Positions 2,946-50,333 of a DNA stretch of 64,000 nucleotides are shown piece after piece. Location: assembly GCA_017395245.1 (NCBI GenBank), contig JAFPVR010000091.1, forward strand, positions 17,072 to 81,071. The letters are read 5' to 3'. The stretch comes from Bacteroidales bacterium. GTDB lineage: Bacteria; Bacteroidota; Bacteroidia; Bacteroidales; WCHB1-69. Position 1 is the first letter of the stretch. Every line of letters starts with the position of its first letter. The translations under genes were made by a program, and so were the position numbers. The notes beneath the pieces are model-generated. The model saw nothing but the letters and a program-made list of their open reading frames with translations, was not told the origin of the DNA and did not search any database.

Positions 2946-3056
2946 GACGTTTGCTTAAGTTCTATTTTGAACTGGCAAAAGTACATTTTTTCGCCTATCA
3001 TAATACAGGGATGATAAAAAAAAGCACCCCAAACTTGTGGTTTGGAGTGCCTTTTG

Positions 3057-3129
3057 TGTCCCCTCAGGGGCTCGAACCCTGGACCCATTGATTAAGAGTC
3101 AATTGCTCTACCAACTGAGCTAAGGAGAC
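3057..3129 (-). tRNA. tRNA-Lys (anticodon CTT)
   Basis: Cloverleaf read by hand: acceptor GTCTCCT/AGGGGAC, D arm GCTC-AGTTGGTA-GAGC, anticodon arm ATTGA-CTCTTAA-TCAAT, T arm CAGGG-TTCGAGC-CCCTG. Confidence 0.9.
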
Positions 3130-24901: not shown

Positions 24902-25783
24902 ATGATTTACGGATATTTGCGTGTGTCGTCCGACGAGCAGGACGTAAACAGCCAGAAGCAGGGCGTTGAGGCTTTCGCGAAGGAGCATGGATGGACTATT
25001 GACGAATACATCTCTGATGAAGGCGTTAGCGGTGGCAAAGATCCCGACAAACGGAATCTCGGTCCGTTGCTGAAGAAATTGAAAAACAATGATGTTCTTA
25101 TTGCAGCAGAGATCAGCCGTTTGGGTCGTGACCTGTACATGGTAATGGACATCCTGCACTTCTGCATGGAGCGCGGCTGTGTAATCCACACTGTCAAAGA
25201 TCGATTCACATTGGGGGATGATATCCAGAGCAAAGTACTTGCTTTTGCTTTCGGATTGGCCGCTGAGATTGAACGTCAGATGATTCGTCAACGCACTCGT
25301 GAAGGTTTGAGATTAAGAATGAAAATGGGAGTACTGTTAGGTCGTCCTATTGGTTCTCCGAACAGTTTGGAAGCACAAAAATACGGTGAATGGAAGGACA
25401 AACTTAAACAAATGGTGGAATGGCAGATGGGACCGAGGCAAATAGCTAATGTTATTGGGTGTGACAGGAACACGGTGAACCGTCTTGTTGAAAGATGGGG
25501 TTACGACGAGCTGTGGAAATATAGAGCCAATTATGCCAAAAACGAAAAAGAGTATAGGGCTAAGCACCGTGTTCCAACGTACAAAGACGAACCTTATAAG
25601 ATAGTGCCGTTAGACCGAAAAAAGACAATTACTTGCATAGAAGCAGGCTTAACATTGCCGCAAATCGCAGAGCAAATGCCTGAGTTCTCGTATGAGCAGG
25701 TATATGATACGGTTCTTTGTGACAGTGAATTAAACACTCTCTATCGCCAGCACGCTCAAAAGAAGCTGGTGAAGAAGAAGTAA
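24902..25783 (+). CDS. Serine recombinase (resolvase/invertase family) with an extended C-terminus
   Basis: MIYGYLRVSSDEQ (catalytic Ser), ...ISRLGRD..., ...ERQMIRQRTREGL..., and HTH RQIANVIGCDRNTVNRL. Confidence 0.85.
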   Translation: MIYGYLRVSSDEQDVNSQKQGVEAFAKEHGWTIDEYISDEGVSGGKDPDKRNLGPLLKKLKNNDVLIAAEISRLGRDLYMVMDILHFCMERGCVIHTVKDRFTLGDDIQSKVLAFAFGLAAEIERQMIRQRTREGLRLRMKMGVLLGRPIGSPNSLEAQKYGEWKDKLKQMVEWQMGPRQIANVIGCDRNTVNRLVERWGYDELWKYRANYAKNEKEYRAKHRVPTYKDEPYKIVPLDRKKTITCIEAGLTLPQIAEQMPEFSYEQVYDTVLCDSELNTLYRQHAQKKLVKKK

Positions 25784-28662: not shown

Positions 28663-29013
28663 ATGGACATCGTAACATTAATCGGCTACCTTATCACTCC
28701 GCTCACCGGGGCAATAGGCTGGATCTTCGGTCGCCGCCAGCGCCGGAATACCGCCATCCAGTCCCTGCAGAAAACCATCCAACTGCTCTCCAACACCATC
28801 CAAGACGACAATCAGAAGATTGTTAGCCTTATGAATGAAATTCAGGAGGTGCGCCGCGAGAATGCCGAACTCAAAGCCGGACAGAAGGAGCTGCTGGGCC
28901 AGATAGAGGCACTGAAAAGTGAGAACCGGGAGCTTAACGAACTTATCAGGGCAAACGGCATCAAGAAAGTGAAGCCCGCAATGCGGAAGGATTGGAAAGG
29001 AGACGCAGAATGA
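28663..29013 (+). CDS. Membrane-anchored coiled-coil protein (possible holin or lysis accessory protein)
   Basis: N-terminal TM IVTLIGYLITPLTGAIGWIF followed by heptad-rich sequence. Directly upstream of the endolysin. Confidence 0.35.
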   Translation: MDIVTLIGYLITPLTGAIGWIFGRRQRRNTAIQSLQKTIQLLSNTIQDDNQKIVSLMNEIQEVRRENAELKAGQKELLGQIEALKSENRELNELIRANGIKKVKPAMRKDWKGDAE

Positions 29014-29678
29014 ACGTAATCCGACACAATTTCCCCGCCACGCAATATGTGTGTGAGCGCACCGAGAAACGGCAGATCGTTCTTCATCACACCGCCAGTG
29101 GTCCGGGCGTGGACGGCGATATTGCCTGGTGGATGAAAACCCCGGAGCGGGTGGCCACCCACTTCATCGTCGATCGAGAGGGCAAGGTTCACCAACTCTT
29201 CGATGAGGAGTTCTGGGGCTACCACCTCGGACTGGCTCAGAAGGTCTTCACCCAGATGAAGCTGCCCTACAAGCAGCTCGACCGTCAGAGCATCGGCATT
29301 GAGATCGACAGCTGGGGTTATCTGGAACCGCACACCGACGGCCAGTTCTATCCGGCCAAGTGGAATGGCAGCCGCAGCGTGCCCAATACCGCCGCCAAGC
29401 CGGTGAAGTACTTCTACGAGTACTGCTCCAACCAAAAATGGAAGGGCCACCGCTACTACGAAAAGTACACCACCGCCCAGATCAATGCCGTGCGCGACCT
29501 GGTGCGCGAGCTGTGTACCCGTCACAACATCCCGAAGACCTACAATCCGGATATGTGGGAACTGTCAAAACGTGCCCTCACCGGCACGCCCGGCATCTTC
29601 GCCCACTGCTCCTACCGCACCGACAAAAGCGATATCCACCCGCAACCCGAAATGATTGACATGTTGAAGGCCTTATGA
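29010..29678 (+). CDS. N-acetylmuramoyl-L-alanine amidase (endolysin, Amidase_2/PGRP type)
   Basis: IVLHHTASG...THFIVDREGKVHQL...SIGIEIDSWG. Confidence 0.85.
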   Translation: MNVIRHNFPATQYVCERTEKRQIVLHHTASGPGVDGDIAWWMKTPERVATHFIVDREGKVHQLFDEEFWGYHLGLAQKVFTQMKLPYKQLDRQSIGIEIDSWGYLEPHTDGQFYPAKWNGSRSVPNTAAKPVKYFYEYCSNQKWKGHRYYEKYTTAQINAVRDLVRELCTRHNIPKTYNPDMWELSKRALTGTPGIFAHCSYRTDKSDIHPQPEMIDMLKAL

Positions 29679-31078: not shown

Positions 31079-31603
31079 ATGGCAGACGAACATCTCATGA
31101 CCGACGACGAATTCCTGCGCCAGGCAAAAGCCTGGGCCGACCGCGTGCGTGCGCAGAGCAAGGCCGCCGCATCCGCCTTCACCAAGGGCAAGAAAAGCGC
31201 AACGCACACCTACAAGACCGGGCGTTATGCCGGCAAGACCGAAGGACGGCTGCGGTCCAAGGTGGGTTACGTACTCCGGAAACGCTACGGGGATCTGGAG
31301 GCCGTGAGTTTCAAGATGCCTGTGCACGGAATCTTCCGCGAGTATGGCGTGGGCAACGGGCAGCCCCGCCACGGAGTGGCCACCAAGAGCGGCAAAGCGG
31401 CCTCCAACAAAATCTATATCAAGCGCACCCCCAGCGACTGGTTCCACAACCCCTTGGAGCGCAACATCGACGCTCTCGGCGACCTCGTGGCCGACTATTA
31501 CGGCGACAAAGTGCTGGTGGAGTTCATGAAGTTGGACACCAACACGACCAACACCGCAAGCCACGAAGGAGTGTTTGCAAAAAAAAGTAAACCCAATGGT
31601 TGA
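31079..31603 (+). CDS. Hypothetical head-tail joining-type protein
   Basis: Position only. Confidence 0.4.
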   Translation: MADEHLMTDDEFLRQAKAWADRVRAQSKAAASAFTKGKKSATHTYKTGRYAGKTEGRLRSKVGYVLRKRYGDLEAVSFKMPVHGIFREYGVGNGQPRHGVATKSGKAASNKIYIKRTPSDWFHNPLERNIDALGDLVADYYGDKVLVEFMKLDTNTTNTASHEGVFAKKSKPNG

Positions 31604-31620
31604 CTGTTTAGAAAAAAGTG

Positions 31621-31628
31621 TATTTTTG
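31621..31628 (+). promoter_or_regulatory. -7 box (TATTTTTG) of the moron promoter
   Basis: TATTTTTGCCGAAAA, lacking the TGTCCCAAC box. Confidence 0.45.
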
Positions 31629-31644
31629 CCGAAAATTTCATGCG

Positions 31645-32187
31645 GTGAAAGTTGACAGCAATCCGATAGTGGAAAACCGACTGTACGCCTTCAGGTTTGA
31701 TGGCGATGATGGCAACATTTACGATGTCACTATGGAACAGCTGTATGACAGGGAATGGCTATGGAATTTCTTCAACGAACACAAACAAGACCTTGGATAT
31801 TTTCATGTATCAGATATCTATGATGCCATTGAACGTACCATAGATGATTTGGATCTGATTGACGATTTGCTGCTGGACGGAACGACTGATCTGGACACAT
31901 ATTTCCGGGATTTGTCCCAAAACTATAAGGATCCGTATCTTGAACGGAGCAAAGGCAAGCTGTCACATTTGCCAGAAGTGCGTCAGAACAGCTGGGTACG
32001 GTTCTACTCTATTCGGTTAGAGAGCGGAATCTATGTGCTTACAGGTGGCACCATCAAGCTGACTGAGAATATGGCAGAGCGGGAGCACACCTTGCGTGAG
32101 GCGAACCGTTTGGAACAATGCAGGGATTATTTGATTGGACAAGGAGTTTGCGATTTCTGCGGCTTCAGTGAATTTTTGTGCGAATAA
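31645..32187 (+). CDS. RelE/ParE-superfamily (HigB/Gp49-like) toxin candidate with an N-terminal extension (GTG start inferred)
   Basis: C-terminal [47 protein letters not shown] resembles Bacteroidales RelE-like toxins. Confidence 0.5.
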
Positions 32188-32200
32188 ACATTATGGAATT

Positions 32201-32620
32201 ATGAATACATTGGAAAAACTGAAACAAATCAGCGAGCCCGCCCATTCCAATTGGAGAGAGAAGGCGCAATGGAGGAAAGACAACCGCGACTGGCTGCGGA
32301 AGTCCGGCCGGATTGCGGTCGCCGTGCTGGAGGCTATCGATGCAAACCCGGACATGAGCCAGGCGAAACTGGCCGAGAAGATGGGAGTGACGAAACAATA
32401 CATCAGCAAAATCGTGAAAGGACAGGAGAACCTGTCCCTGCAGACCATCTGCAAGTTGGAGTCAGCACTGGGGATCACGCTGGTTGAAGTACAGATTCCA
32501 CAGGCATCTCAAATGGCCACACCTGTTGAATACTGCCAGCATCAGTGGCTTACCTCAAAGCAGATTCTCATGGAGATGACATCTGCTATTGCTTATTCAG
32601 AATCATATCAAGTTGCATAG
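32201..32620 (+). CDS. XRE-family HTH antitoxin candidate with a ~45 aa C-terminal extension
   Basis: [42 protein letters not shown]. Confidence 0.7.
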
Positions 32621-32622
32621 CG

Positions 32623-33045
32623 ATGAAACAGATTAGTTTTCTTATGAGACAGATAAGGGTTAACCAGTTCGCCATTCTGTCTGACGATGCGCCCAACGGA
32701 GAAATCCCCGTTGAATTTGGCGTTCAATTCAAGACCGATACGGTTGGAAAATGGATCGCGGTTGCCTTCAAGACGCAATATATGAACGGTTCCGCACCCA
32801 TGTTGTTGTTGGAAATCCAATGTGATTTTCAGGTGAAGCCGGAAGACTGGGATTCCCTTGTCAACGACGGGAAACTGGTGTTTCCTATCGAATTTCTGCG
32901 CCATATAGCCCTGCACACGGTTGGCTCGGCTCGCGGAATCCTTTTCTGCAAGACCGAAGGTTCTCCGTTCAGCAGATTCATCCTGCCCCCTGTTAATCTC
33001 GAAACTATGATTAGTCAGGATTTGGAGATTCCGTTGCCTGAATAA
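32623..33045 (+). CDS. SecB-like chaperone candidate
   Basis: Aligned by eye to E. coli SecB: FILPPVNLETMI against LNLAPVNFDALF, plus preceding beta-strand-like segments. 140 aa. Confidence 0.45.
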   Translation: MKQISFLMRQIRVNQFAILSDDAPNGEIPVEFGVQFKTDTVGKWIAVAFKTQYMNGSAPMLLLEIQCDFQVKPEDWDSLVNDGKLVFPIEFLRHIALHTVGSARGILFCKTEGSPFSRFILPPVNLETMISQDLEIPLPE

Positions 33046-33072
33046 CCAACGGACGATATAAGCCCCCCTACC

Positions 33073-33103
33073 ACGGCCTCCCATCCTGGAGACCGTTTTT
33101 TTT
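33073..33103 (+). terminator. Rho-independent terminator closing the moron
   Basis: ACGGCCTCC-loop-GGAGACCGT followed by a T8 run. Confidence 0.65.
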
Positions 33104-33138
33104 GTCCCAACCCGTTCTCGCAAACGGGTTTATTTTTG
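33103..33138 (+). promoter_or_regulatory. Phage promoter motif copy 4 (TGTCCCAAC-N19-TATTTTTG)
   Basis: Same spacing as the other copies. Upstream of the tail operon. Confidence 0.55.
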
Positions 33139-33157
33139 CCGTAAAAACAAAGCGATT

Positions 33158-33343
33158 ATGGGAGCATCACCACTGCCAAAGCCTTACGTTCCAACGGTCA
33201 ACTTCTGCCGAGACTGCGAATATTTCCAACTGAAATGGAAATCGGAGCTCTCCGACTGGAGTTACTGCGACTATTGGAACAAGGACACCAAAGAAGGATC
33301 CCCTTGCTGTGATAAATTTGAAGAGAGAGACTCCCAATGCTGA
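33158..33343 (+). CDS. Small Cys-rich (zinc-ribbon-like) protein
   Basis: CRDC...C...CC...C pattern in 61 aa. Confidence 0.45.
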   Translation: MGASPLPKPYVPTVNFCRDCEYFQLKWKSELSDWSYCDYWNKDTKEGSPCCDKFEERDSQC

Positions 33344-33579
33344 AAGAAATGGAAAAGTTTGAATACAATAAAGCCGGCCATTGGAATGACCGGCTGTGCA
33401 TATTTCTTTCGGTGCCATCGGCACGTATTAGAATATTCTACCATCCCATGACTCTGTGCGAATCTTTTTGTAAAAGATTATCGCTGCAATAACTATCAAA
33501 ATGGTCTCTAACATCTCTTCAAAATTTTATCGCTGCAATAATACAAAAAAAATAAATACAATCCATAAAAAAAATCTCT

Positions 33580-36500
33580 ATGGCAAAGGAAGTAAATAAA
33601 AGGGTTAACGTTTGGATTAACGGCAAAGAGGTTGAAAACAACATCAAATCGATCCGTTCCGCCATGATTCATCTGACTAATCAGATGAACAAAATGGAAA
33701 TCGGGTCTGAGGAGTACATCCAAACCTCAAAGAAACTGCGGGACTTGAAAACGATTTACGATGAACATTGTAAATCGTTAAAAATGACGAATCAGGAAAT
33801 CGAGAATAACACCACCTCTTGGAAAAAGAACATCATTCATTGGGGAGCATTCTCCGCCACCGTCCAAGGAGCCTCCGCCGCAGTTCAACGCTTTATCTCT
33901 TCCACCCAGGAGTACGTCGATGCCTATGCCTCACTCGATGACGCGATGAGTGCGGTACAGAAGACCACCGGCATGACTCGCGAGGAGGTGGAACTGCTGA
34001 AAAACTCTCTGCAGAGTATCGACACCCGCACCTCTACCGAGCAGCTGCTGAAGATCGCTGAAATCGGTGGCCGTATGGGGTTGGCAAAAGAAGAAATCCG
34101 CGATTTCACCGAAGCGGTCAACAAAGCCAACGTCGCCCTGGGCGATTCCTTCCAAGGAGGAGCGGAAGAAATATCCTCCATCCTCGGCAAAATCAGTCTC
34201 GCCTACAAGGAAACCCGCGACCAGAACATAGGACAGTCGATCACCCAGATTGGCTCAGCCCTGAATGAAGTTGGCGCGTCTGCCAATGCCACTGAAGGCA
34301 ATATCGCTTCCTTCGTGCAGCGCGTTGGCAGTATGCCGGAAATGTTCCGCCCAACCGTTGAACAAGCCATCGCCCTGGGTGCCGCGTTTGAGGAAAGTTC
34401 CATCGACGCGGAAGTGGCCAGTCGCGCATTCGGCATCGTGATGATGAAAGCCTCCACCAATGTGGAAGGTTTCGCTGCCGCCATGCACCGCCCTGCGGAA
34501 GAGATCGAGGAGTTAATCAATACCAATCCCGCACAATTCTTCGTGGAGTTTGCAGAATCGCTGAACGGGCTGAAGGGCACAGAGATCGGTTCTGTACTCA
34601 AAGATCTGAAGCTGAATGCCGACGGTGTAAACAAAATCATCGGTGCAATGAGTACCAACACCGAGCGTTTCACCGAAATACTTAACACGTCAAACACAGC
34701 CTTTGCAGAGGCCATATCGCTTGACAACGAGTATGCAGTTGTTAATGAGAATGCAGCCGCCCAATTGGAGAAAGCGAAGAAGGCCGTGCTGGATGCCAAA
34801 GCGGCACTGGGAGAGGAGCTGATTCCTGTAATCACGGAGTTGACCAAGGGGACAGCGTCAAGCATCAGAGTGTTGGGTGAAGTCGTGAAGTGGATGTTGG
34901 AACACAAGAATCTGATCAAGACGTTGGCCGCGGCATACGGTTTATTGTATGCCGCACACATGAAAGAGGTCGCGGCAAAAAAGCTGTCAACGGCTTGGAC
35001 AAAAGCGGAAATGGCCGGTGAGTCTGCCGGAACAGTTGTCACCAGTCTCTTTGCGTTGGCAAAGGCAAAGCTCGCCAAAAACACTCTGGCGGCCGCCAAT
35101 GCACAAAAGGCCTTGAAAGTCGCTTTTGCAGCCACTCCATGGGGAGCTATAATCACCGCTGTTCTAACACTGGCCACCGCATTTTCTTTCTTCCGCAGCA
35201 AAACAGATGAAGCGGCTGAAGCCCAGCAAAATTTGGAGGAACAGATCACTCAGCAGTACAATGCGGAGAAAAAGAAGGTGGAAGATCTTCAGAAGATCAT
35301 TGAGAACGAAAACTCCACCCGGGACCAGAAACTGAAAGCTATCAAGGAACTGAAAAAACTCATCCCCGATTATGTTGCAGAGTTGGACAAAGAAGGCAAG
35401 GTGGTGAACAATAACAAAAACGCCATCAACGATTACCTGGTTGCACTGAAAAACAAAATTCGATACCAAAGTCTTGAAAAAGCCCTGAACGAGACCCAGA
35501 ACAAGATAGTGGAAGCCGAACTGAAAGACAAAAAAGCCAGGGATGCCTATTTTGCCCAAGGATGGGGGGCTGAAGTCTGGGATAAGACGAAATCGTTCCT
35601 ATTTGGTGGATGGTCGAAAGAAGATGTGATGAAGAATGCAGATGCGGAGCTTCAGGGATTGTACGATCTCCGGGCTGAGTACAATAAGAAGATGGAGGTA
35701 ATGGATAAGGAGTTGAAGGATAAAACGGGGAAGACCTATCGTGAACTTTACAACGACAATTTACTGTCTTCACTGGACGAGAACAATCCACCGGGTTCTG
35801 GCTCCGGCTCCGGAAATGCACCAGACAAAAAAACGATCACCGCCCGCGAAAACTTCCACAAAGAGCTCCTGCAGATGGAAAACAAAGCGCAGGCCGATAC
35901 GCTCGAAGGATGGGAGAAAACCAAGCAGGAAATTGTCAACAAATACGATGAATTGCTTACAGAGGCCGCAAAACTCTACGGCAAGGATTCCGAAGCCTTC
36001 AATAAGGTGTTACAGATGAAATCGGACGCCATCACCGCCGCCGGACAAAAGTACCTTGAAAAGTACGGAAAAACCCTTGAAGATTTTTCCCAGAAATTTC
36101 AGACCTGGCAGAAAGAGACTGCCCCGGAAGGAAAGAACGAGATGGTGGATGCCGTCATCGGCACCCGGCAGAAGTGGATCCAACGCACCAACGAGGTCTC
36201 CGCACAAATGTCAGAACTGCTCGACCTGCGTGAACAGTTCGTGAAAGACAACGTTGACACCACCTCCCTCGACGCGCTCATCAACAAGCTCGGCGATGAG
36301 ATGAACGGCATGGCCGACATGGAGGCAAAGGACATCCAGAAGACCTTGGAGAAATACCAGGCGCAGACCGACGACTTCATCAAAGCGGAACAGAAATCCA
36401 TCACCGACGCCACCCTCACTGAAACCCAGCGGCAGAAAAACGCCATCCGGGAAAGATACGAGCTGGAAATCCAGCTCGTCGAGAAGCTGAAAGCCGCCCG

Positions 36501-37527
36501 AAAAGCTGAAGAGGGCGATGATGCCGATGTGTCGGATCTGGAATCCAAAATCAAAGAACTGAGGGAACTGCTCGACAAGCAGCTTGGCAACGTTGACAAG
36601 GCAGCCGCTTCCTCCGGACAGAAATCCGTCTGGCAGCAGCTCGCCGAGTTCGACTGGAGCAAGATGAGCGAGAACTGGCAGTCCGCACTCGGACTCATGA
36701 GCCAGGGACTGCAGGAGTTCGCCAGCGTCGCCTTCGACATCTACGGCTCCATCGCCCAGATCCAGGACAATATGATGGAGGCTGAGCTTCAGCGCACCCA
36801 GGAGGCTTACGACGCTAAGGCCGCCGCCCTCCAACGCCAGCTCGACCAGGGCGTAATCTCCCAAAAGGCATACGATGCCAAGATGCAGAAGCTCACTGAA
36901 GAAAAGGAGAAGAAGGAAAAGAAACTGAAACATGAGCAATTTGCCCGGGAAAAGGCGGCCAACATCATCCAGGCCCTCATCAACGGCGCACTGGCCATCA
37001 CCAACATCTGGGCGCAATGGGCTGGCCAGCCTATCGTGGCCGCCGTGCTCACCGCCGTGGCTGCCGCCTCCAACGCTGTGCAAATTGCAGCTATCGCCAC
37101 CCAGCCTAACCCCTACGCCAAAGGCGGCTACATCCGTGGACGGCAGTACGCCGTGATGGGCGAGCAGGGCGACGAGTGGGTGGCCAGCAACAAGCTGCTG
37201 CGTGACAAAGAGGCCTCAGCTGTCATCGCTGCCCTCGACGACTACCAGAAGGGCAACCGCAACGCCCTCGCTGGCATCTCATTCGCCGGGCCCGACCCAA
37301 AAATCATGTCCCAAGCCGTCTCCGGAAACGGACGTACTTTTGCACCGTCAAACCAGACCACCAACAACTACTACCAGAACCCGGACAACTCGGAACTGCT
37401 CAAGGAGATACGGAAGATGAACGACTTTCTGCGCGACCCCAACAACCGCCGCGCCTACATCAGCCGGAAGATCCAGTTAGAATTCGACGAACAGGAGGAG
37501 GAAATCAGGTCTATGGCGAGACTATAG
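33580..37527 (+). CDS. Tail tape measure protein
   Basis: 1315 aa, alpha-helical and coiled-coil rich with hydrophobic central segments. Position upstream of the distal tail genes. Confidence 0.85.
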   Translation: MAKEVNKRVNVWINGKEVENNIKSIRSAMIHLTNQMNKMEIGSEEYIQTSKKLRDLKTIYDEHCKSLKMTNQEIENNTTSWKKNIIHWGAFSATVQGASAAVQRFISSTQEYVDAYASLDDAMSAVQKTTGMTREEVELLKNSLQSIDTRTSTEQLLKIAEIGGRMGLAKEEIRDFTEAVNKANVALGDSFQGGAEEISSILGKISLAYKETRDQNIGQSITQIGSALNEVGASANATEGNIASFVQRVGSMPEMFRPTVEQAIALGAAFEESSIDAEVASRAFGIVMMKASTNVEGFAAAMHRPAEEIEELINTNPAQFFVEFAESLNGLKGTEIGSVLKDLKLNADGVNKIIGAMSTNTERFTEILNTSNTAFAEAISLDNEYAVVNENAAAQLEKAKKAVLDAKAALGEELIPVITELTKGTASSIRVLGEVVKWMLEHKNLIKTLAAAYGLLYAAHMKEVAAKKLSTAWTKAEMAGESAGTVVTSLFALAKAKLAKNTLAAANAQKALKVAFAATPWGAIITAVLTLATAFSFFRSKTDEAAEAQQNLEEQITQQYNAEKKKVEDLQKIIENENSTRDQKLKAIKELKKLIPDYVAELDKEGKVVNNNKNAINDYLVALKNKIRYQSLEKALNETQNKIVEAELKDKKARDAYFAQGWGAEVWDKTKSFLFGGWSKEDVMKNADAELQGLYDLRAEYNKKMEVMDKELKDKTGKTYRELYNDNLLSSLDENNPPGSGSGSGNAPDKKTITARENFHKELLQMENKAQADTLEGWEKTKQEIVNKYDELLTEAAKLYGKDSEAFNKVLQMKSDAITAAGQKYLEKYGKTLEDFSQKFQTWQKETAPEGKNEMVDAVIGTRQKWIQRTNEVSAQMSELLDLREQFVKDNVDTTSLDALINKLGDEMNGMADMEAKDIQKTLEKYQAQTDDFIKAEQKSITDATLTETQRQKNAIRERYELEIQLVEKLKAARKAEEGDDADVSDLESKIKELRELLDKQLGNVDKAAASSGQKSVWQQLAEFDWSKMSENWQSALGLMSQGLQEFASVAFDIYGSIAQIQDNMMEAELQRTQEAYDAKAAALQRQLDQGVISQKAYDAKMQKLTEEKEKKEKKLKHEQFAREKAANIIQALINGALAITNIWAQWAGQPIVAAVLTAVAAASNAVQIAAIATQPNPYAKGGYIRGRQYAVMGEQGDEWVASNKLLRDKEASAVIAALDDYQKGNRNALAGISFAGPDPKIMSQAVSGNGRTFAPSNQTTNNYYQNPDNSELLKEIRKMNDFLRDPNNRRAYISRKIQLEFDEQEEEIRSMARL

Positions 37528-46693: not shown

Positions 46694-49021
46694 ATGATTA
46701 GAATATACGTCAAAGGCCAGCAGCTCGCTCTGAAGCGCGACACCACGCTCACGGTGGAACTCAATAACGCCCTGTTCGCCTCGCCGGATATTGAGGGAGA
46801 CATCTCGTTTAGCTTCGGTCTGCCTGTTGAGGGAAACGAGCAGATGCTTGGCTTCGCAAACCTCCCACAAATAGGTAGTATGAAAAAGACGCCCTGCCTC
46901 GTGTGGTGCAACAACAGCCAGAACTGGGCCGGGGAACTGGTGGTCCAGAAAACCGGGCACGACAACATCTCTGCTGCGTTGGTCATCAACCCCTATCCAG
47001 AAGGGTTCTCCGGACGCAGCCTCACAGCCAACGAGGACGCCGACATTGTGATTTCCGAAAGCAAAGAGACGCACAACGCCGCGTGGGAAGAGTTTTTGAA
47101 GGCCTCGGTGAATGACCCTGATGTGAAGTTTGCTCCGTTCATCAACGAGGATGGCTATGGAAGCGAGAACGAAGACTTTGGCCGCTGGAATGGGATACAA
47201 AGGACGAAGGTGGTGAACTCACTGTTCTTCACCGATGCAGGTACACTTCTGGACACGATTTCACATCCATTCTCGAAAGCGCACAACGAGCTGCTCGACG
47301 TTAGTGTTATCGACACAGTGGACACCGACGGTAAACCTTCTTATTCCGAATATACGGAAATGAACCAGCTGGCCTTCTGTCCGCAGATCCGCATCGCCCG
47401 CATATTGTCGTTATGGTGCCGGAACGCAGGCTATACGTTCATCGACCACCTTGGTGATGACCTGTCCGGAACATTCCTGCAGTCGCAGAAATCTCTGGAC
47501 GGCACGTCAGCGCAATATGATACGGATTCCACAGATCGCATTAGTGGCTATTCTGAAGGATATGCGACGGACATCCAGAACTGGCAGTGGTACTTCAGTT
47601 TGATTCCTGAAGAAGGATCTGAGGCGTATATCAATAATGCTACAGTTTCCATACAGGAAACGGGGTGGTGGATGTTTCGAATCACAGCGGACTACCGCTC
47701 AATCGCCTATCAAATACAGAGGTATTTCAGCATAGGCTACCGCGCCTGGCTCGCCATCTATCAAGGATTTGATAAGCTGTATGAGTATTATATCGGAACT
47801 TTGCCCACCAAAAACTTCAAGGTGGATTTGGAATGGAAACAATATGTGTCGGATATCTGGACGGCCGCCCCGTTCAGAATCGCCATATATTTCAAAGATG
47901 GGCAAAACACGAGTTATTACCTTAGAGAATCCCTCAAAACAAATCAGCCGTCCATACCAATGACGGTTGACATACGTAAAATTTCAGCTGACCAGGTGCA
48001 GTCGGGTTTCAACATTTTCCGCAGCAAGTTCCGGATTCCGGAACTACTCCCGGAGGTGACCAACGCCTCGTTCCTGAAGACTCTGCTCGAAACCATGGGG
48101 TTGTGCTTCTTCGTGTCCGGGAAGCAGAAGACCATCGAGGTTGTTCCGTATAGCAGGATAAGCAATGCCAAGTCTTTGGATCTGACACCTTACGAACTCA
48201 CGCGTGAAACCGAGACAATCTCGCCGGATGAGACGAAGCGGACATTCCGGCTCAAACCGCTGAAAGACGAAGACTACAACAAGGGTTTGAGGATTGATGA
48301 CGTTGCCGTCAAACTCCCTGACCCGTATGCAAACCACGAGCACTATGTCCTGCGCACCAAGACGAACACCCTGTACCACGCTTCAAAGCAGGAGGGTGCT
48401 GTCGAAAACTGGGTGGAAGGATGGGAGGAATACAGCGGCAACCCCGACAGGCTGGAGGTCGGCAGCGGGGACGAAGAGAACAGGGAACCGTCGGTGGCCA
48501 TCCCGCACCAGCGACTGTTCAGCACAAACCGCCGCCATCCCGACACAGATATCATCTCTGGCGAGACACCGCAGCTCATGGTGGCCGACTTCACCATCAG
48601 CAGCGACCTTTACAACACAACGGAAAAAACATCCGCCATCATTCTGACCCAATACCGTGGATTCCGATTGCGGCAGTACGGAGCCAGTGCCACCGAAATC
48701 AAGAACGAAGTGATGCTGCCGGTCTGGGGTGACGATTTCGCATTGAAGGCAAAAGGGGCCAACTCCATCGGCGAGAAGTATGTGAAACCCGTGCTGGAAT
48801 TGCTCGGCCATAAGACAGTAACCTACAAGTTTCGGCTTCCGACCGCCATGATACAGCAGGTAGAGGACCTCCTTCGCCCGTCGGAGCTCGACCCGGGAAT
48901 GCAGACGCGGTTCCTGATCGTGAGAAATGTGAAGACGGTGCCGAAAAGAATCACCTTCCAGATAGACAACGACATTGATGACACAGTGCTGTGTCAGATT
49001 GAGACGGTGAAGGTGTATTAG
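46694..49021 (+). CDS. Large tail/baseplate structural protein
   Basis: 775-aa ORF at the end of the tail module. Confidence 0.5.
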   Translation: MIRIYVKGQQLALKRDTTLTVELNNALFASPDIEGDISFSFGLPVEGNEQMLGFANLPQIGSMKKTPCLVWCNNSQNWAGELVVQKTGHDNISAALVINPYPEGFSGRSLTANEDADIVISESKETHNAAWEEFLKASVNDPDVKFAPFINEDGYGSENEDFGRWNGIQRTKVVNSLFFTDAGTLLDTISHPFSKAHNELLDVSVIDTVDTDGKPSYSEYTEMNQLAFCPQIRIARILSLWCRNAGYTFIDHLGDDLSGTFLQSQKSLDGTSAQYDTDSTDRISGYSEGYATDIQNWQWYFSLIPEEGSEAYINNATVSIQETGWWMFRITADYRSIAYQIQRYFSIGYRAWLAIYQGFDKLYEYYIGTLPTKNFKVDLEWKQYVSDIWTAAPFRIAIYFKDGQNTSYYLRESLKTNQPSIPMTVDIRKISADQVQSGFNIFRSKFRIPELLPEVTNASFLKTLLETMGLCFFVSGKQKTIEVVPYSRISNAKSLDLTPYELTRETETISPDETKRTFRLKPLKDEDYNKGLRIDDVAVKLPDPYANHEHYVLRTKTNTLYHASKQEGAVENWVEGWEEYSGNPDRLEVGSGDEENREPSVAIPHQRLFSTNRRHPDTDIISGETPQLMVADFTISSDLYNTTEKTSAIILTQYRGFRLRQYGASATEIKNEVMLPVWGDDFALKAKGANSIGEKYVKPVLELLGHKTVTYKFRLPTAMIQQVEDLLRPSELDPGMQTRFLIVRNVKTVPKRITFQIDNDIDDTVLCQIETVKVY

Positions 49022-50136
49022 AATTGGATGGTATTCCACTCTAATATCTTCTTCGCATTCGATCTGTGAGTGTATTTTTCTGTCATTTCTAACGAACTGT
49101 GATCAGCTAGTTCCTTAACAAGCTTGGCGGGTACGCCCGCCTCCAACATTTCGGTGATTCCAGTATCCTTCAAGGAATAAAACTGGTACGACGAAGGCAG
49201 CCCAAGCGCATCGCGCATTTCCTTCCAACGCTCGGCGACACGGGTCGGGGCAGTGTACTTCGGCCCAGGGGCGTATGTATTTCGGTCAGAGAAGACATAC
49301 CATTGGGACGGCAAGCCGCGCAACGTCCTGAAATACTCCATGATTTCCTCCGGAACACCGATAATCCTGTCACAGTGGTTTTTAGCGACAAAAGACGGAA
49401 TCTTCAGCATACATTGGTCGAAGTCAATGTACCCTACCCTGATCATCATGATTTCCTTCGGACGGATTAGCAGACGATAGCACAACAGCATTACATATAT
49501 ATATAAAGGTGTACGCTCATCGAACCATGCACGGATATCCTTCCTGACCGACGGAGGTATAACGACCCTTATCTTCCTGTCCACCTTGCGTTTCGGAAGG
49601 TCTTCGGCGGGATTTTCCTTGATGTAGCCGCGCTGCACAAAGAAATCGAACAGCGTGTACAGATAAGAAGAGTAGTTGTTGTAACTGCGATTGCTGAGAT
49701 TGACATGCAAGTCAGTGTATTCGAGATAGCGGAGGAGATGGTCGCGATCGATCTGGAAGCAATAGATATGGTCGAGATGCTGCTTCTTCAGATAATCCAG
49801 GAACAACTGCGAGAAAGACCTGTATGATTTCATGGTGGCGGGCCTCAATATCTTCTCTTTTGCATCGAGAAACTTCTGGATGCACTGCGACACGCTGAGC
49901 GCCCTGGCGGCCAACGCCTCGACAAACGGGTTCCAACCACCCCAAAGTTTCTCGTTGATCTTGTGGCAAAGGGATTTCGCGTACCTGTCGCGGTCGGAAG
50001 ACTTCCTCACATGGTTGACACGGTATTTAACGCGCTGCAGCTTTCCCGTCTCCGGATTGAGCGCATAGTAGTAGACAAAGCAATCTTTGCCCTTGTGGTA
50101 AGCGCACGGCTTGAAATCGATGAATGGAGTGGACAT
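49018..50136 (-). CDS. Tyrosine-type site-specific integrase
   Basis: C-terminal catalytic region ...LKDTGITEMLEAGVPAKLVKELADHSSLEMTEKYTH. Adjacent to a tRNA and an att repeat. Confidence 0.9.
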   Translation of the reverse strand: MSTPFIDFKPCAYHKGKDCFVYYYALNPETGKLQRVKYRVNHVRKSSDRDRYAKSLCHKINEKLWGGWNPFVEALAARALSVSQCIQKFLDAKEKILRPATMKSYRSFSQLFLDYLKKQHLDHIYCFQIDRDHLLRYLEYTDLHVNLSNRSYNNYSSYLYTLFDFFVQRGYIKENPAEDLPKRKVDRKIRVVIPPSVRKDIRAWFDERTPLYIYVMLLCYRLLIRPKEIMMIRVGYIDFDQCMLKIPSFVAKNHCDRIIGVPEEIMEYFRTLRGLPSQWYVFSDRNTYAPGPKYTAPTRVAERWKEMRDALGLPSSYQFYSLKDTGITEMLEAGVPAKLVKELADHSSLEMTEKYTHRSNAKKILEWNTIQF

Positions 50137-50261
50137 ATTTTTTTTTCCTTTCTATGTTTTTTGCGCATTGGAAAGGAAGTGTGAATTGTATCGGTATTGT
50201 ATCAGTAAAATTGCCGAAAACCATCTAAACAAATGATTTTCAGCAATTTACATTTTCTTAG

Positions 50262-50333
<72 letters not shown>

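What the first reader, a model, noticed from the sequence alone, without database searches (positions are those of the whole stretch)
31621..33103. Self-contained moron encoding a toxin / HTH antitoxin / SecB-like chaperone (TAC-like) triad inside the tail module
- A separate -7 promoter (31621) and a strong terminator (33073-33103) bracket three tightly packed genes inserted between head-tail genes and the tail operon promoter.
- Gene 1 ends with a RelE/ParE-like (HigB/Gp49-type) segment.
- Gene 2 is an XRE HTH protein with a ~45 aa C-terminal tail, the position where chaperone-addiction sequences sit in known TAC systems.
- Gene 3 (140 aa) aligns by eye to SecB, including FILPPVNLETMI against E. 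coli LNLAPVNFDALF.
- The HigB-HigA-SecB order is the same as in the Mycobacterium tuberculosis TAC system.
- A prophage-borne version in Bacteroidales could act as an abortive-infection or superinfection-exclusion module.
Basis: partly seen in the sequence, partly recalled or inferred. Interest (0 to 1): 0.7.

Follow-up and report, generated by a model that had tools for sequence, protein, structure and literature searches.

The report
Prophage toxin–antitoxin–chaperone (TAC-like) cassette
A Bacteroidales prophage carries, just upstream of its tail tape-measure gene, a self-contained three-gene cassette that looks like a very divergent toxin / antitoxin / SecB-like chaperone system, a kind known from Mycobacterium and E. 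coli, where some act in anti-phage defence.

Summary
Three tightly packed + strand genes lie between a conserved Bacteroidota-type promoter (TTG 31600, TATTTTTG 31621-31628) and a hairpin plus U8 terminator (33073-33103). They are g1 31645-32187, g2 32201-32620 and g3 32623-33045.

- **g2** is an XRE helix-turn-helix protein (Pfam HTH_3, 1.8e-13). It has a 43-residue aromatic tail ending in Val-Ala, the same ClpX degron dipeptide as M. tuberculosis HigA1.
- **Antitoxin tails:** across 46 diverged antitoxin clusters from homologous triads, 36 end in Ala, against 6.8% of control ORFs.
- **g3** has no sequence match to SecB. Its AlphaFold model nevertheless finds SecB or SecB-like chaperones as top hits in two fold libraries.
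- **g1** is a remote HigB/Gp49-like protein, supported by a Foldseek probability of 0.92 and a 91% profile link to shorter sister toxins that keep the HigB catalytic residues.
- **Conservation:** the triad order is kept in about 110 loci across Bacteroidota, including phage contigs and a type I restriction-modification operon.
- **Moron status:** sister phages carry other cargo, such as a Panacea antitoxin pair, in the same slot, so the cassette is a moron in a hypervariable site.

I rate it a divergent variant of a known kind. PADLOC already catalogues it only as the untested candidate PDC-M64. Toxicity, chaperone addiction and anti-phage function remain inferred.

The parts
31600..31628 (+). 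Bacteroidota-type promoter: -33-like TTG (31600-31602, overlapping the stop codon of the upstream gene) and -7 box TATTTTTG (31621-31628)
   Evidence: The motif sits at the stated position and TAnnTTTG is enriched in the window (40 against 22.5 expected). The block is invariant in the window, L004, L005 and L006, although the flanks differ. That TAnnTTTG/TTTG is the Bacteroides promoter consensus is my own knowledge.
31645..32187 (+). g1: putative toxin, 180 aa. A 'long' divergent HigB/Gp49-like (RelE/ParE superfamily) protein with invariant core ..[21 protein letters not shown]..
   Evidence: - It has no significant Pfam, PHROG or NCBIfam hit (the only listing is a chance-level NCBIfam dUTPase at E 0.065), and a weak PADLOC hit to PDC-M64B (E = 0.0022).
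- The AF2 model has pLDDT 75.7. The six top Foldseek PDB hits are all S. pneumoniae HigB (E 0.03-0.33, probability 0.38-0.92, target-normalised TM 0.46-0.51).
- hhalign of the long-toxin alignment against the short-toxin alignment gives probability 91%, E = 1e-6.
- The start codon is set by homologues.
32201..32620 (+). g2: antitoxin, 139 aa. An N-terminal W-rich region, an XRE HTH (residues 51-96, nt 32351-32488) and a C-terminal 43-aa tail
   Evidence: - Pfam HTH_3 at 1.8e-13.
- NCBIfam HigA and Y4mF antitoxin models match below cutoff.
- PADLOC PDC-M64C/B HTH models match at 3e-12.
- NCBI names the identical protein 'helix-turn-helix domain-containing protein'.
32489..32617 (+). ChAD-like tail of g2 (residues 97-139, with aromatic residues Y, W, Y, Y). 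It ends in the Val-Ala codons at 32612-32617, a predicted ClpX degron
   Evidence: - In homologous triads the tails have a median length of about 45 aa, carry 3-8 aromatic residues and are poorly conserved.
- 36 of 46 antitoxin clusters end in Ala (AA 11, VA 11, IA 3), against 13 of 190 control ORFs; binomial p = 2e-33.
- Val-Ala is the HigA1 degron and Ala-Ala/LAA the CmdA degron.
32623..33045 (+). g3: SecB-like chaperone candidate, 140 aa. The conserved motif is HxAxxTVGxARGILxxKTEG..F...ILPxxN
   Evidence: - AF2 model: pLDDT 80.1, topology beta1-4 followed by a helix.
- Foldseek PDB: the top 20 hits are all SecB, Rv1957 or proteins I class as SecB-like fold (E 1.4e-3 to 9e-3, probability 0.97-1.0).
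- BFVD: the top hit is a phage 'SecB' (E 7.6e-4, TM 0.48).
- No sequence-level match to SecB.
- PADLOC PDC-M64C model PDLC04763 matches at 2.5e-5.
- The family holds 1,335 clusters at 50% identity.
33073..33103 (+). Intrinsic terminator: an 8-bp GC-rich hairpin (33073-33096) followed by a U8 run
   Evidence: RNA fold. The cassette copy in L006 ends exactly here, at 33101. Equivalent hairpin + T-run structures occur in L004, L006 and L124.

Best explanation
The cassette is a prophage-borne tripartite toxin-antitoxin-chaperone module of the HigBAC type, built from very divergent families.

**Proposed mechanism**
- g1 encodes a HigB/Gp49-like toxin, most likely a ribosome-dependent mRNA endonuclease.
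- g2 encodes an XRE-HTH antitoxin. It neutralises g1 and probably represses the operon.
- g2's disordered, aromatic-bearing C-terminal tail ends in a Val-Ala ClpX degron, which makes the antitoxin unstable.
- g3 encodes a SecB-fold chaperone that binds this tail and shields it from ClpXP and from aggregation.
- When the chaperone is titrated away, the antitoxin is degraded and the toxin stops translation. By analogy with E. coli HigC and CmdC, the competitor would be a newly made capsid or tail protein of an infecting phage.
- The lysogen population would thereby gain abortive-infection or superinfection protection.

**Shown here**
- The gene anatomy, promoter and terminator.
- The HTH domain.
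- The conserved C-terminal Ala-type ending of the antitoxins.
- The SecB-like and HigB-like predicted folds.
- The strict three-gene linkage.
- The mobility of the cassette.

**Inferred**
- Toxicity and the toxin's target.
- Chaperone addiction.
- ClpXP dependence.
- The trigger and the anti-phage role.
For: - **Anatomy:** three co-oriented genes with 13-nt and 2-nt gaps, their own conserved promoter and a terminator.
- **g2:** HTH_3 at 1.8e-13. Its tail ends in VA, and 36 of 46 diverged antitoxin clusters end in Ala against 6.8% of controls (p = 2e-33). This matches the Val-Ala degron of HigA1 and the AA/LAA degron of CmdA.
- **g3:** the SecB fold is the top hit in both PDB and BFVD.
- **g1:** the top PDB fold hits are HigB, and the profile link to the short sister toxins has probability 91%.
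- **Short sister toxins:** 11 of 23 hit Pfam Gp49 below threshold. They align with Mtb HigB1 over 88 columns and keep equivalents of K58, E66, R68, R77, K95, Q98 and K99.
- **Linkage:** of 113 g3-family loci, 108 have an HTH gene directly upstream. Of the 91 of these with enough upstream sequence, 90 have a recognised toxin gene before it.
- **Defence and mobile contexts:** one triad lies between hsdS and hsdR, 11 loci are on IMG/VR phage contigs, and the proteins hit PADLOC candidate PDC-M64.
- **Same slot, other cargo:** sister phages hold a Panacea-domain antitoxin pair in the same slot.
- **Gene order:** it is identical to an annotated Rhodococcus RelE/ParE - HTH - SecB TAC.
Against: - **g3 versus SecB by sequence:** no statistically significant similarity. 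Pfam PF02556 matched 0 of 150 members, the PDB profile search found nothing, and hhalign against a SecB profile gave probability 0.5%.
- **Weak fold scores for g3:** Foldseek E-values are only about 1e-3 with TM 0.33-0.48, and the model is poor for residues 100-120 (pLDDT 52-67).
- **g1:** no significant Pfam, PHROG or NCBIfam hit. Its direct comparison with Mtb and Rhodococcus HigB is not significant. The HigB fold hits have E 0.03-0.3. Its Q98/K99 equivalents are not evident.
- **No operator found:** there is no inverted repeat at the promoter.
- **Exceptions to the degron:** about 20% of antitoxin tails do not end in Ala.
- **No experimental data** exist for this family, and no paper on PDC-M64 was found.
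Confidence: 0.75

Rival explanations
1. The cassette is an ordinary two-gene HigBA-like toxin-antitoxin pair (g1-g2). The co-transcribed third gene is not a chaperone of the antitoxin. It could be a second regulator, an adaptor or an independent phage-sensing or accessory protein.
For: - g3 has no sequence similarity to SecB.
- The fold scores are modest.
- E. coli NT1F31 HigBA toxicity does not depend on ClpXP, so degron logic is not universal among TACs.
Against: - g3-family genes are almost never found without an upstream antitoxin that carries a long variable tail with an Ala-type C-terminus (108 of 113 loci).
- The same g3 family is coupled to at least two different toxin/antitoxin classes, and perhaps a third whose middle protein also ends in AA. 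That is the modular pattern expected of a tail-binding chaperone.
- The SecB fold is the top hit in two independent libraries.
Confidence: 0.13
2. The cassette is a TAC-type module whose role is addiction or stabilisation of the prophage (post-segregational killing or stress response), not defence against other phages.
For: - The M. tuberculosis TAC is described as stress-responsive.
- One copy (L005) sits beside pckA with only a remnant of phage DNA. There it cannot serve a phage.
Against: - Several triads lie in defence contexts: inside a type I R-M operon and in phage lysis or moron slots.
- They hit PADLOC defence-candidate models.
- The window's own slot holds other TA cargo in sister phages.
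- Characterised prophage-encoded E. coli TACs defend against phages.
Confidence: 0.2
3. It is not a toxin system at all. g2 would be a phage transcriptional regulator flanked by two unrelated small accessory genes, and g3 could be a hotdog-fold enzyme.
For: - g1 and g3 have no significant family hits.
- Hotdog-fold thioesterases appear among the lower fold hits for g3 (E 0.06-0.2).
Against: - The triad is conserved across distant Bacteroidota.
- The short sister toxins keep all HigB catalytic residues.
- A C-terminal degron signature makes no sense for a stable repressor.
- All hotdog hits rank below the 20 SecB-like hits.
Confidence: 0.04

Closest known systems
M. tuberculosis TAC: HigB1-HigA1-SecB(TA), Rv1955-Rv1956-Rv1957
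   Same: - The gene order is the same: toxin, then HTH antitoxin, then chaperone.
- The toxin is of Gp49/HigB type.
- The antitoxin has a C-terminal extension whose last two residues are Val-Ala (the ClpX degron).
- The chaperone has a SecB fold (5mtw is the top Foldseek hit).
   Different: - No detectable sequence similarity of g3 to Rv1957.
- g1 is 180 aa against 125 aa and lacks a Pfam Gp49 match.
- The host phylum is Bacteroidota, which to my knowledge has no housekeeping SecB.
- This copy is prophage-borne with its own promoter and terminator.
E. coli prophage-encoded HigBAC (strain NT1F31) and CmdTAC (PD-T4-9) anti-phage TAC systems
   Same: - They are tricistronic TACs carried in prophage hypervariable regions.
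- The chaperone recognises aromatic patterns in the antitoxin tail and is titrated by the phage major tail protein or capsid protein.
- CmdA ends in (L)AA and is degraded by ClpXP.
   Different: - The trigger, the ClpXP dependence and the defence role are untested here.
- g2's tail is 43 aa, against 96 aa in E. coli HigA.
- CmdT is an ADP-ribosyltransferase, not a RelE-like protein.
- g3 did not hit any PADLOC model other than PDC-M64C at E <= 1.
PADLOC candidate system PDC-M64 (untested 'phage defence candidate')
   Same: - g2 matches the PDC-M64B/C HTH models (3e-12).
- g3 matches PDLC04763 (2.5e-5).
- g1 and the short toxins weakly match PDLC04756 and PDLC04752.
- One triad is embedded in a type I R-M operon.
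   Different: - The library gives no description or mechanism for these models, and no paper mentions PDC-M64.
- The toxin matches are weak, so membership of g1 is uncertain.
Housekeeping SecB (Pfam PF02556)
   Same: The predicted topology is the same: a four-stranded antiparallel sheet followed by a helix. In the global hhalign alignment, the ..G.xF...ILPxxN.. segment pairs with SecB's ..GGFPpLxLxPxNF.. segment.
   Different: - There is no significant sequence match.
- g3 is encoded in a TA operon.
- It is not expected to act in protein export.

Membership tests
TAC (toxin-antitoxin-chaperone) systems | A tricistronic operon in the order toxin, antitoxin, chaperone | tested here: met
   g1, g2 and g3 are co-oriented with 13-nt and 2-nt gaps, one promoter and one terminator. 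The order is kept in about 90 loci and equals the annotated Rhodococcus TAC.
TAC (toxin-antitoxin-chaperone) systems | The third gene encodes a SecB-like chaperone (fold level) | tested here: met
   The AF2 model has pLDDT 80. All top 20 Foldseek PDB hits are SecB, Rv1957 or proteins I class as SecB-like fold, with probability 0.97-1.0. The BFVD top hit is a phage SecB. TM scores are only 0.33-0.48.
TAC (toxin-antitoxin-chaperone) systems | The antitoxin carries a C-terminal chaperone-addiction (ChAD) extension with aromatic residues | tested here: inconclusive
   A 43-aa tail lies beyond the HTH and has 4 aromatic residues. In homologues the tails have a median length of about 45 aa, are variable and carry 3-8 aromatic residues. 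Binding to g3 and aggregation-proneness were not tested.
TAC (toxin-antitoxin-chaperone) systems | A ClpX degron (aliphatic dipeptide such as VA or AA) at the extreme C-terminus of the antitoxin | tested here: met
   g2 ends in ..SYQVA. Of 46 antitoxin clusters, 36 end in Ala and 25 end in AA, VA or IA, against 5 of 190 control ORFs ending in AA, VA, IA or LA.
TAC (toxin-antitoxin-chaperone) systems | The antitoxin needs the chaperone to neutralise the toxin | not testable with these tools
   This requires co-expression and toxicity-rescue assays.
SecB family (Pfam PF02556) | A sequence match to the SecB profile | tested here: not met
   0 of 150 family members hit PF02556 at E <= 0.1. hmmsearch against PDB found no hits. 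hhalign against a 14-sequence SecB/SecB(TA) alignment gave probability 0.5%.
SecB family (Pfam PF02556) | Homotetramer (dimer of dimers) | not testable with these tools
HigB / Gp49-like toxins (Pfam PF05973, RelE/ParE superfamily) | A sequence match to the Gp49 profile at the gathering score | tested here: not met
   g1 has no Pfam hit. Of the short sister toxins, 11 of 23 hit Gp49, but all below the cutoff (best E = 1.2e-4).
HigB / Gp49-like toxins (Pfam PF05973, RelE/ParE superfamily) | A RelE-type fold | tested here: inconclusive
   The top six PDB fold hits of the g1 model are S. pneumoniae HigB (E 0.03-0.33, probability 0.38-0.92, target-normalised TM 0.46-0.51). ParE and HigB2 appear lower down. 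The model pLDDT is 75.7.
HigB / Gp49-like toxins (Pfam PF05973, RelE/ParE superfamily) | Conserved catalytic basic residues (HigB1 K58, R68, R77, K95, K99) | tested here: inconclusive
   The short sister toxins keep all of them. In g1's family the invariant K112, R128 and K147 (numbering of the 189-aa ORF) are plausible equivalents of R68, R77 and K95. The alignment covers only the hairpin, and the Q98/K99 equivalents are unclear.
HigA / XRE antitoxins | A Cro/C1-type HTH domain | tested here: met
   Pfam HTH_3 matches at 1.8e-13 (50.7 bits, above the 23-bit cutoff). NCBIfam HigA (TIGR02607) scores 29.7 bits, below its 47.7-bit cutoff, so g2 is not an equivalog.
PADLOC PDC-M64 candidate system | All three genes match the PDC-M64 models | tested here: inconclusive
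   g2 matches at 3.3e-12, g3 at 2.5e-5 and g1 only at 2.2e-3. PADLOC's own system rules were not run.
Phage moron | An autonomous promoter and terminator, plus presence/absence among otherwise syntenic phages | tested here: met
   Promoter and terminator. In sister phages L124-L129 the flanks are syntenic, but the slot holds other cargo or is nearly empty. The cassette also occurs in other contexts.

The most novel reading that the evidence does not exclude
The g3 family has at least 1,335 clusters at 50% identity, all unannotated. It may be a Bacteroidota-wide chaperone/sensor family with a SecB-like fold, too diverged from SecB to detect by sequence or even convergent with it. It would serve as a common phage-sensing module plugged onto at least three different toxin-antitoxin 'warheads': short HigB-like, long g1-type, and an unknown pair in L108. 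All of their antitoxins carry an Ala-type C-terminal degron. Its placement next to tail genes would raise the question of how the prophage's own structural proteins avoid triggering it. It would also offer a route to find what gut Bacteroidales defence systems sense.
Probability: 0.3. Interest if true: 0.65.

Novelty: new variant of a known kind. Interest (0 to 1): 0.48.

Why it matters
- **Reach of TAC systems:** they are known and mechanistically dissected only in Actinobacteria and Proteobacteria. This cassette suggests the same logic (degron-tagged antitoxin, protective SecB-fold chaperone, RelE-type toxin) is widespread in gut and rumen Bacteroidota and their phages.
- **Missed by annotation:** the families involved escape Pfam and NCBI naming, and the members looked up are named 'hypothetical protein' or carry no name.
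- **Sharp experiments:** the reading points to a VA-to-DD substitution, tail deletion, omission of g3 and phage challenge.
- **Annotation markers:** the C-terminal Ala signature and the TVGxARGIL..KTEG motif could be used to annotate more than 1,000 protein clusters.
- **Defence hotspot:** the work identifies a hypervariable defence/TA slot upstream of the tape-measure gene in this phage group.

Tried and rejected
- **Family scans of g1 and g3:** Pfam, PHROG and NCBIfam gave nothing significant.
- **Sequence links between g3 and SecB:**
  - The profile search against PDB found nothing.
  - Pfam on 150 members gave no SecB hit.
  - hhalign against single E. coli SecB and Rv1957 sequences gave probability about 1%.
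  - hhalign against a SecB profile I assembled from plasmid records, PDB sequences and Rv1957 gave probability 0.5%.
The SecB claim rests on fold and context.
- **Wasted search:** my last homologous-protein search, with E. coli SecB, listed only sequences at least 83% identical, which were useless for a profile.
- **g1 and the long-toxin profile:** the PDB sequence search returned only chance hits such as coronavirus spike heptad repeats. The comparison with Mtb and Rhodococcus HigB was not significant.
- **Operator search:** no inverted repeats at the promoter.
- **Public phage collections:** tblastn of g3 and blastn of the cassette against GenBank phages found no match. IMG/VR holds no close relatives of g3.
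- **The search for related loci with the 150-sequence alignment** failed for lack of a conserved stretch.
- **Hotdog-fold thioesterase reading of g3:** rejected, because all such hits rank below the 20 SecB-like hits.
- **GTG 31618 as the g1 start:** rejected. It lies upstream of the -7 box, and homologues start nine codons later.
Full report
**1. What is in the sequence**

Three + strand ORFs fill 31.6-33.05 kb.
- **g1:** homologues of the first ORF begin at MKVDS. The real start is therefore GTG 31645 (180 aa, stop 32185-32187), not GTG 31618.
- **g2:** runs from ATG 32201 to 32620 (139 aa).
- **g3:** runs from ATG 32623 to 33045 (140 aa).
- **Spacing:** the gaps between genes are 13 nt and 2 nt.

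- **Promoter:** the -7 box TATTTTTG is at 31621-31628. A TTG lies at 31600-31602, overlapping the stop codon of the upstream gene.
- **Motif enrichment:** TAnnTTTG occurs 40 times in the window against 22.5 +/- 5.1 expected, and none of 100 shuffles reaches 40.
- **Promoter conservation:** the whole block GGTTGACT...GTGTATTTTTGCCG is invariant in four copies of the cassette whose flanks differ.
- **Terminator:** downstream, the RNA fold gives an 8-bp GC-rich hairpin at 33073-33096 followed by U8.
- **Next unit:** a second hairpin (33109-33130) and another TATTTTTG (33131) start the next transcription unit.
- **GC content:** it drops from 0.56-0.59 upstream to 0.49-0.52 in the cassette.

**2. 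Context**

- The next large gene (33580-37527) is a tape measure protein (PHROG E = 5e-124).
- The upstream genes have no family hits, so 'head-tail genes' is unverified.
- A tyrosine integrase (49018-50136) lies next to tRNA-Met (50261-50333). The element is therefore an integrated prophage.
- The closest DNA relatives are uncultured Bacteroidales MAGs.

**3. The cassette is a moron in a hypervariable slot**

The same DNA is found in three settings:
- in a sister prophage (L004, matching 31095-33145);
- in another context ending exactly at the terminator (L006, matching 31548-33101);
- beside pckA with only a remnant of the phage gene (L005).

Six IMG/VR phages have syntenic flanks but lose homology at about 31530. 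Homology returns at 33073 or later. In that slot:
- L124-L126 carry a SocA/Panacea antitoxin (PF13274, 2.6e-19) plus a 150-aa partner;
- L128 carries three other ORFs;
- L127 carries almost nothing.

**4. Gene 2**

- Pfam HTH_3 matches residues 51-96 (1.8e-13).
- HigA and HipB-type antitoxin models match below their cutoffs.
- The remaining 43 residues (..[32 protein letters not shown]) are aromatic-bearing and end in Val-Ala.
- In M. tuberculosis HigA1 the terminal Val-Ala is the ClpX degron and lies within the chaperone-addiction region (PMC8165232; Mets et al. bioRxiv 2024.02.24.581848).

**5. Gene 3**

Sequence searches gave little.
- No Pfam, PHROG or NCBIfam hit. Only PADLOC PDC-M64C matched (2.5e-5).
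- A profile search found 1,335 clusters at 50% identity, all about 140 aa long. The members looked up are named 'hypothetical protein' or carry no name; the named ones come from Pedobacter and Chitinophagaceae.

Structure prediction points to SecB.
- The AF2 model (pLDDT 80.1) has four long beta-strands followed by helices.
- In PDB, all top 20 Foldseek hits have the SecB-like fold. They are SecB from E. coli and H. influenzae, M. tuberculosis Rv1957 in complex with the ChAD peptide, and the streptococcal proteins 2o2a and 2hng, which I class as SecB-like fold from my own knowledge (E 1.4e-3 to 9e-3, probability 0.97-1.0).
- Hotdog-fold enzymes follow only at E > 0.06.
- In BFVD the best hit is 'Preprotein translocase subunit SecB [Siphoviridae sp.]' (E 7.6e-4, TM 0.48).

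The sequence-level tests against SecB all failed.
- Pfam SecB matched 0 of 150 members.
- hhalign against a 14-sequence SecB/SecB(TA) alignment gave probability 0.5%.
- I had verified my recalled E. coli SecB and Rv1957 sequences against PDB before using them.

**6. Gene 1**

- It has no significant family hit. Its close family is small (17 hits).
- The AF2 model (pLDDT 75.7) finds S. pneumoniae HigB, which describes as Gp49-like, as its six best PDB hits. The best has E 0.03, probability 0.92 and target-normalised TM 0.5. ParE and HigB2 appear further down.

Related triads supply a bridge to HigB. They hold either 'long' toxins like g1 or 'short' toxins of 120-150 aa.
- Of the short toxins, 11 of 23 hit Pfam Gp49 below threshold.
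- The short toxins align to M. tuberculosis HigB1 over 88 columns (hhalign E = 1e-4, probability 57% against a single sequence).
- In that alignment the equivalents of the catalytic residues K58, E66, R68, R77, K95, Q98 and K99 (PMC9098466) are conserved.
- The long-toxin profile matches the short-toxin profile at 91% probability (E = 1e-6). The match is over the core hairpin SW[LV]R.YAI....Y[VI].TGG.
- A direct comparison of long toxins with HigB is not significant.

So g1 is probably a RelE/ParE-superfamily toxin, but this is the weakest link.

**7. The triad is a conserved, modular system**

I gathered 113 loci with a g3-family gene from genomes, metagenomes and IMG/VR.
- 108 have an HTH antitoxin ORF directly upstream. 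Three of the five exceptions are contig ends.
- Of the 91 of these with enough upstream sequence, 90 have a recognised toxin gene before it. In all, 68 loci have short toxins and 26 have long ones.
- After clustering the antitoxins at 70% identity, 36 of 46 end in Ala (AA 11, VA 11, IA 3). Among control ORFs from the same loci, 13 of 190 end in Ala (binomial p = 2e-33).
- The tails have a median length of about 45 aa, are poorly conserved and hold 3-8 aromatic residues.
- One triad lies between hsdS and hsdR. Others lie beside phage endolysin genes.
- One locus (L108) couples a g3-like gene to two unrelated proteins, the middle of which also ends in AA.
- An annotated Rhodococcus plasmid TAC (RelE/ParE toxin, HTH protein, SecB chaperone, next to an Abi gene) has the same gene order.

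**8. Mechanism**

The best-supported model is a HigBAC-type TAC.
- The g3 chaperone binds the degron-tagged tail of g2.
- It thereby protects g2 from ClpXP and keeps the g1 toxin neutralised.
- Loss of free chaperone releases g1. In E. coli this loss is caused by the phage major tail protein or capsid protein.

What is shown and what is inferred:
- **Shown here:** anatomy, domain and fold assignments, the degron signature, gene linkage and mobility.
- **Inferred:** toxicity, the target, chaperone addiction, ClpXP dependence, the trigger and the defence role.
- **My own knowledge:** Bacteroidota have ClpXP, use an ..LAA tmRNA tag and lack housekeeping SecB.

**9. Comparison and novelty**

- The architecture and predicted logic equal those of known TACs.
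- The differences are a chaperone family with no detectable sequence relation to SecB, toxins below Gp49 thresholds with g1 a longer form, the Bacteroidota host and a prophage moron setting.
- PADLOC already lists matching models as the untested candidate PDC-M64, and no paper mentions it. Two papers in the library contain SecB-like, Bacteroides and toxin-antitoxin together; judging by their titles and abstracts, neither is about a Bacteroides TAC.
- I rate this a new variant of a known kind. It is of moderate interest: not surprising to a TA or defence specialist, but it extends TACs to a major gut phylum and gives clear experiments.

Noticed in passing
window 31530-33530; L124:4544-5565, L128:4570-5798, L127:4475-5070, L004:2439-3272: The slot between the 174-aa gene and the tape-measure gene is hypervariable among sister phages. 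It holds a SocA/Panacea antitoxin (PF13274, 2.6e-19) plus a 150-aa partner in L124-126, a three-ORF cassette in L128, and almost nothing in L127. In L004 it holds the same TAC plus an extra 277-aa protein with an NPPF motif.
   Followed up: partly
L108:5154-6423: A g3-like gene is preceded by two proteins that have no HTH and no Pfam hit. The middle one also ends in ..KEAA. This may be a third toxin-antitoxin type coupled to the same chaperone family.
   Followed up: partly
L014:212-5450: A long-toxin / HTH / g3-like triad is embedded between the hsdS and hsdR genes of a type I restriction-modification system.
   Followed up: no
L065:723-1238: A close relative of g3, with the same downstream terminator region, has no g1 or g2 upstream. 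It looks like an orphan chaperone gene or a decayed cassette.
   Followed up: no
L005:2766-4402: A cassette copy lies beside pckA and carries about 226 bp of the 3' end of the upstream phage gene. This suggests a relic of a prophage or transfer together with flanking phage DNA.
   Followed up: no
window 49018-50333 and 3056-3129: A tyrosine integrase (Phage_integrase, 1.1e-13) lies next to tRNA-Met and probably marks the prophage end. A tRNA-Lys lies at 3056-3129.
   Followed up: partly
window 24902-25783 and 28992-29678: A serine recombinase / DNA invertase (PHROG 1.8e-39) and an amidase/endolysin-like gene (3.8e-13) sit upstream of the cassette, among genes of unknown function.
   Followed up: no
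window 33131-33343: A Cys-rich 61-aa ORF (CRDCEYF..CDYW..CCDKF) has its own TATTTTTG box. It is conserved in sister phages that lack the TAC cassette (L124:5660-5863).
   Followed up: no
g1 family alignment A7, residues 1-60: In a non-significant hhalign alignment (P = 0.08), the N-terminal part of the long toxins pairs with the catalytic C-terminal half of HigB. This could hint at an internal duplication or be chance.
   Followed up: partly
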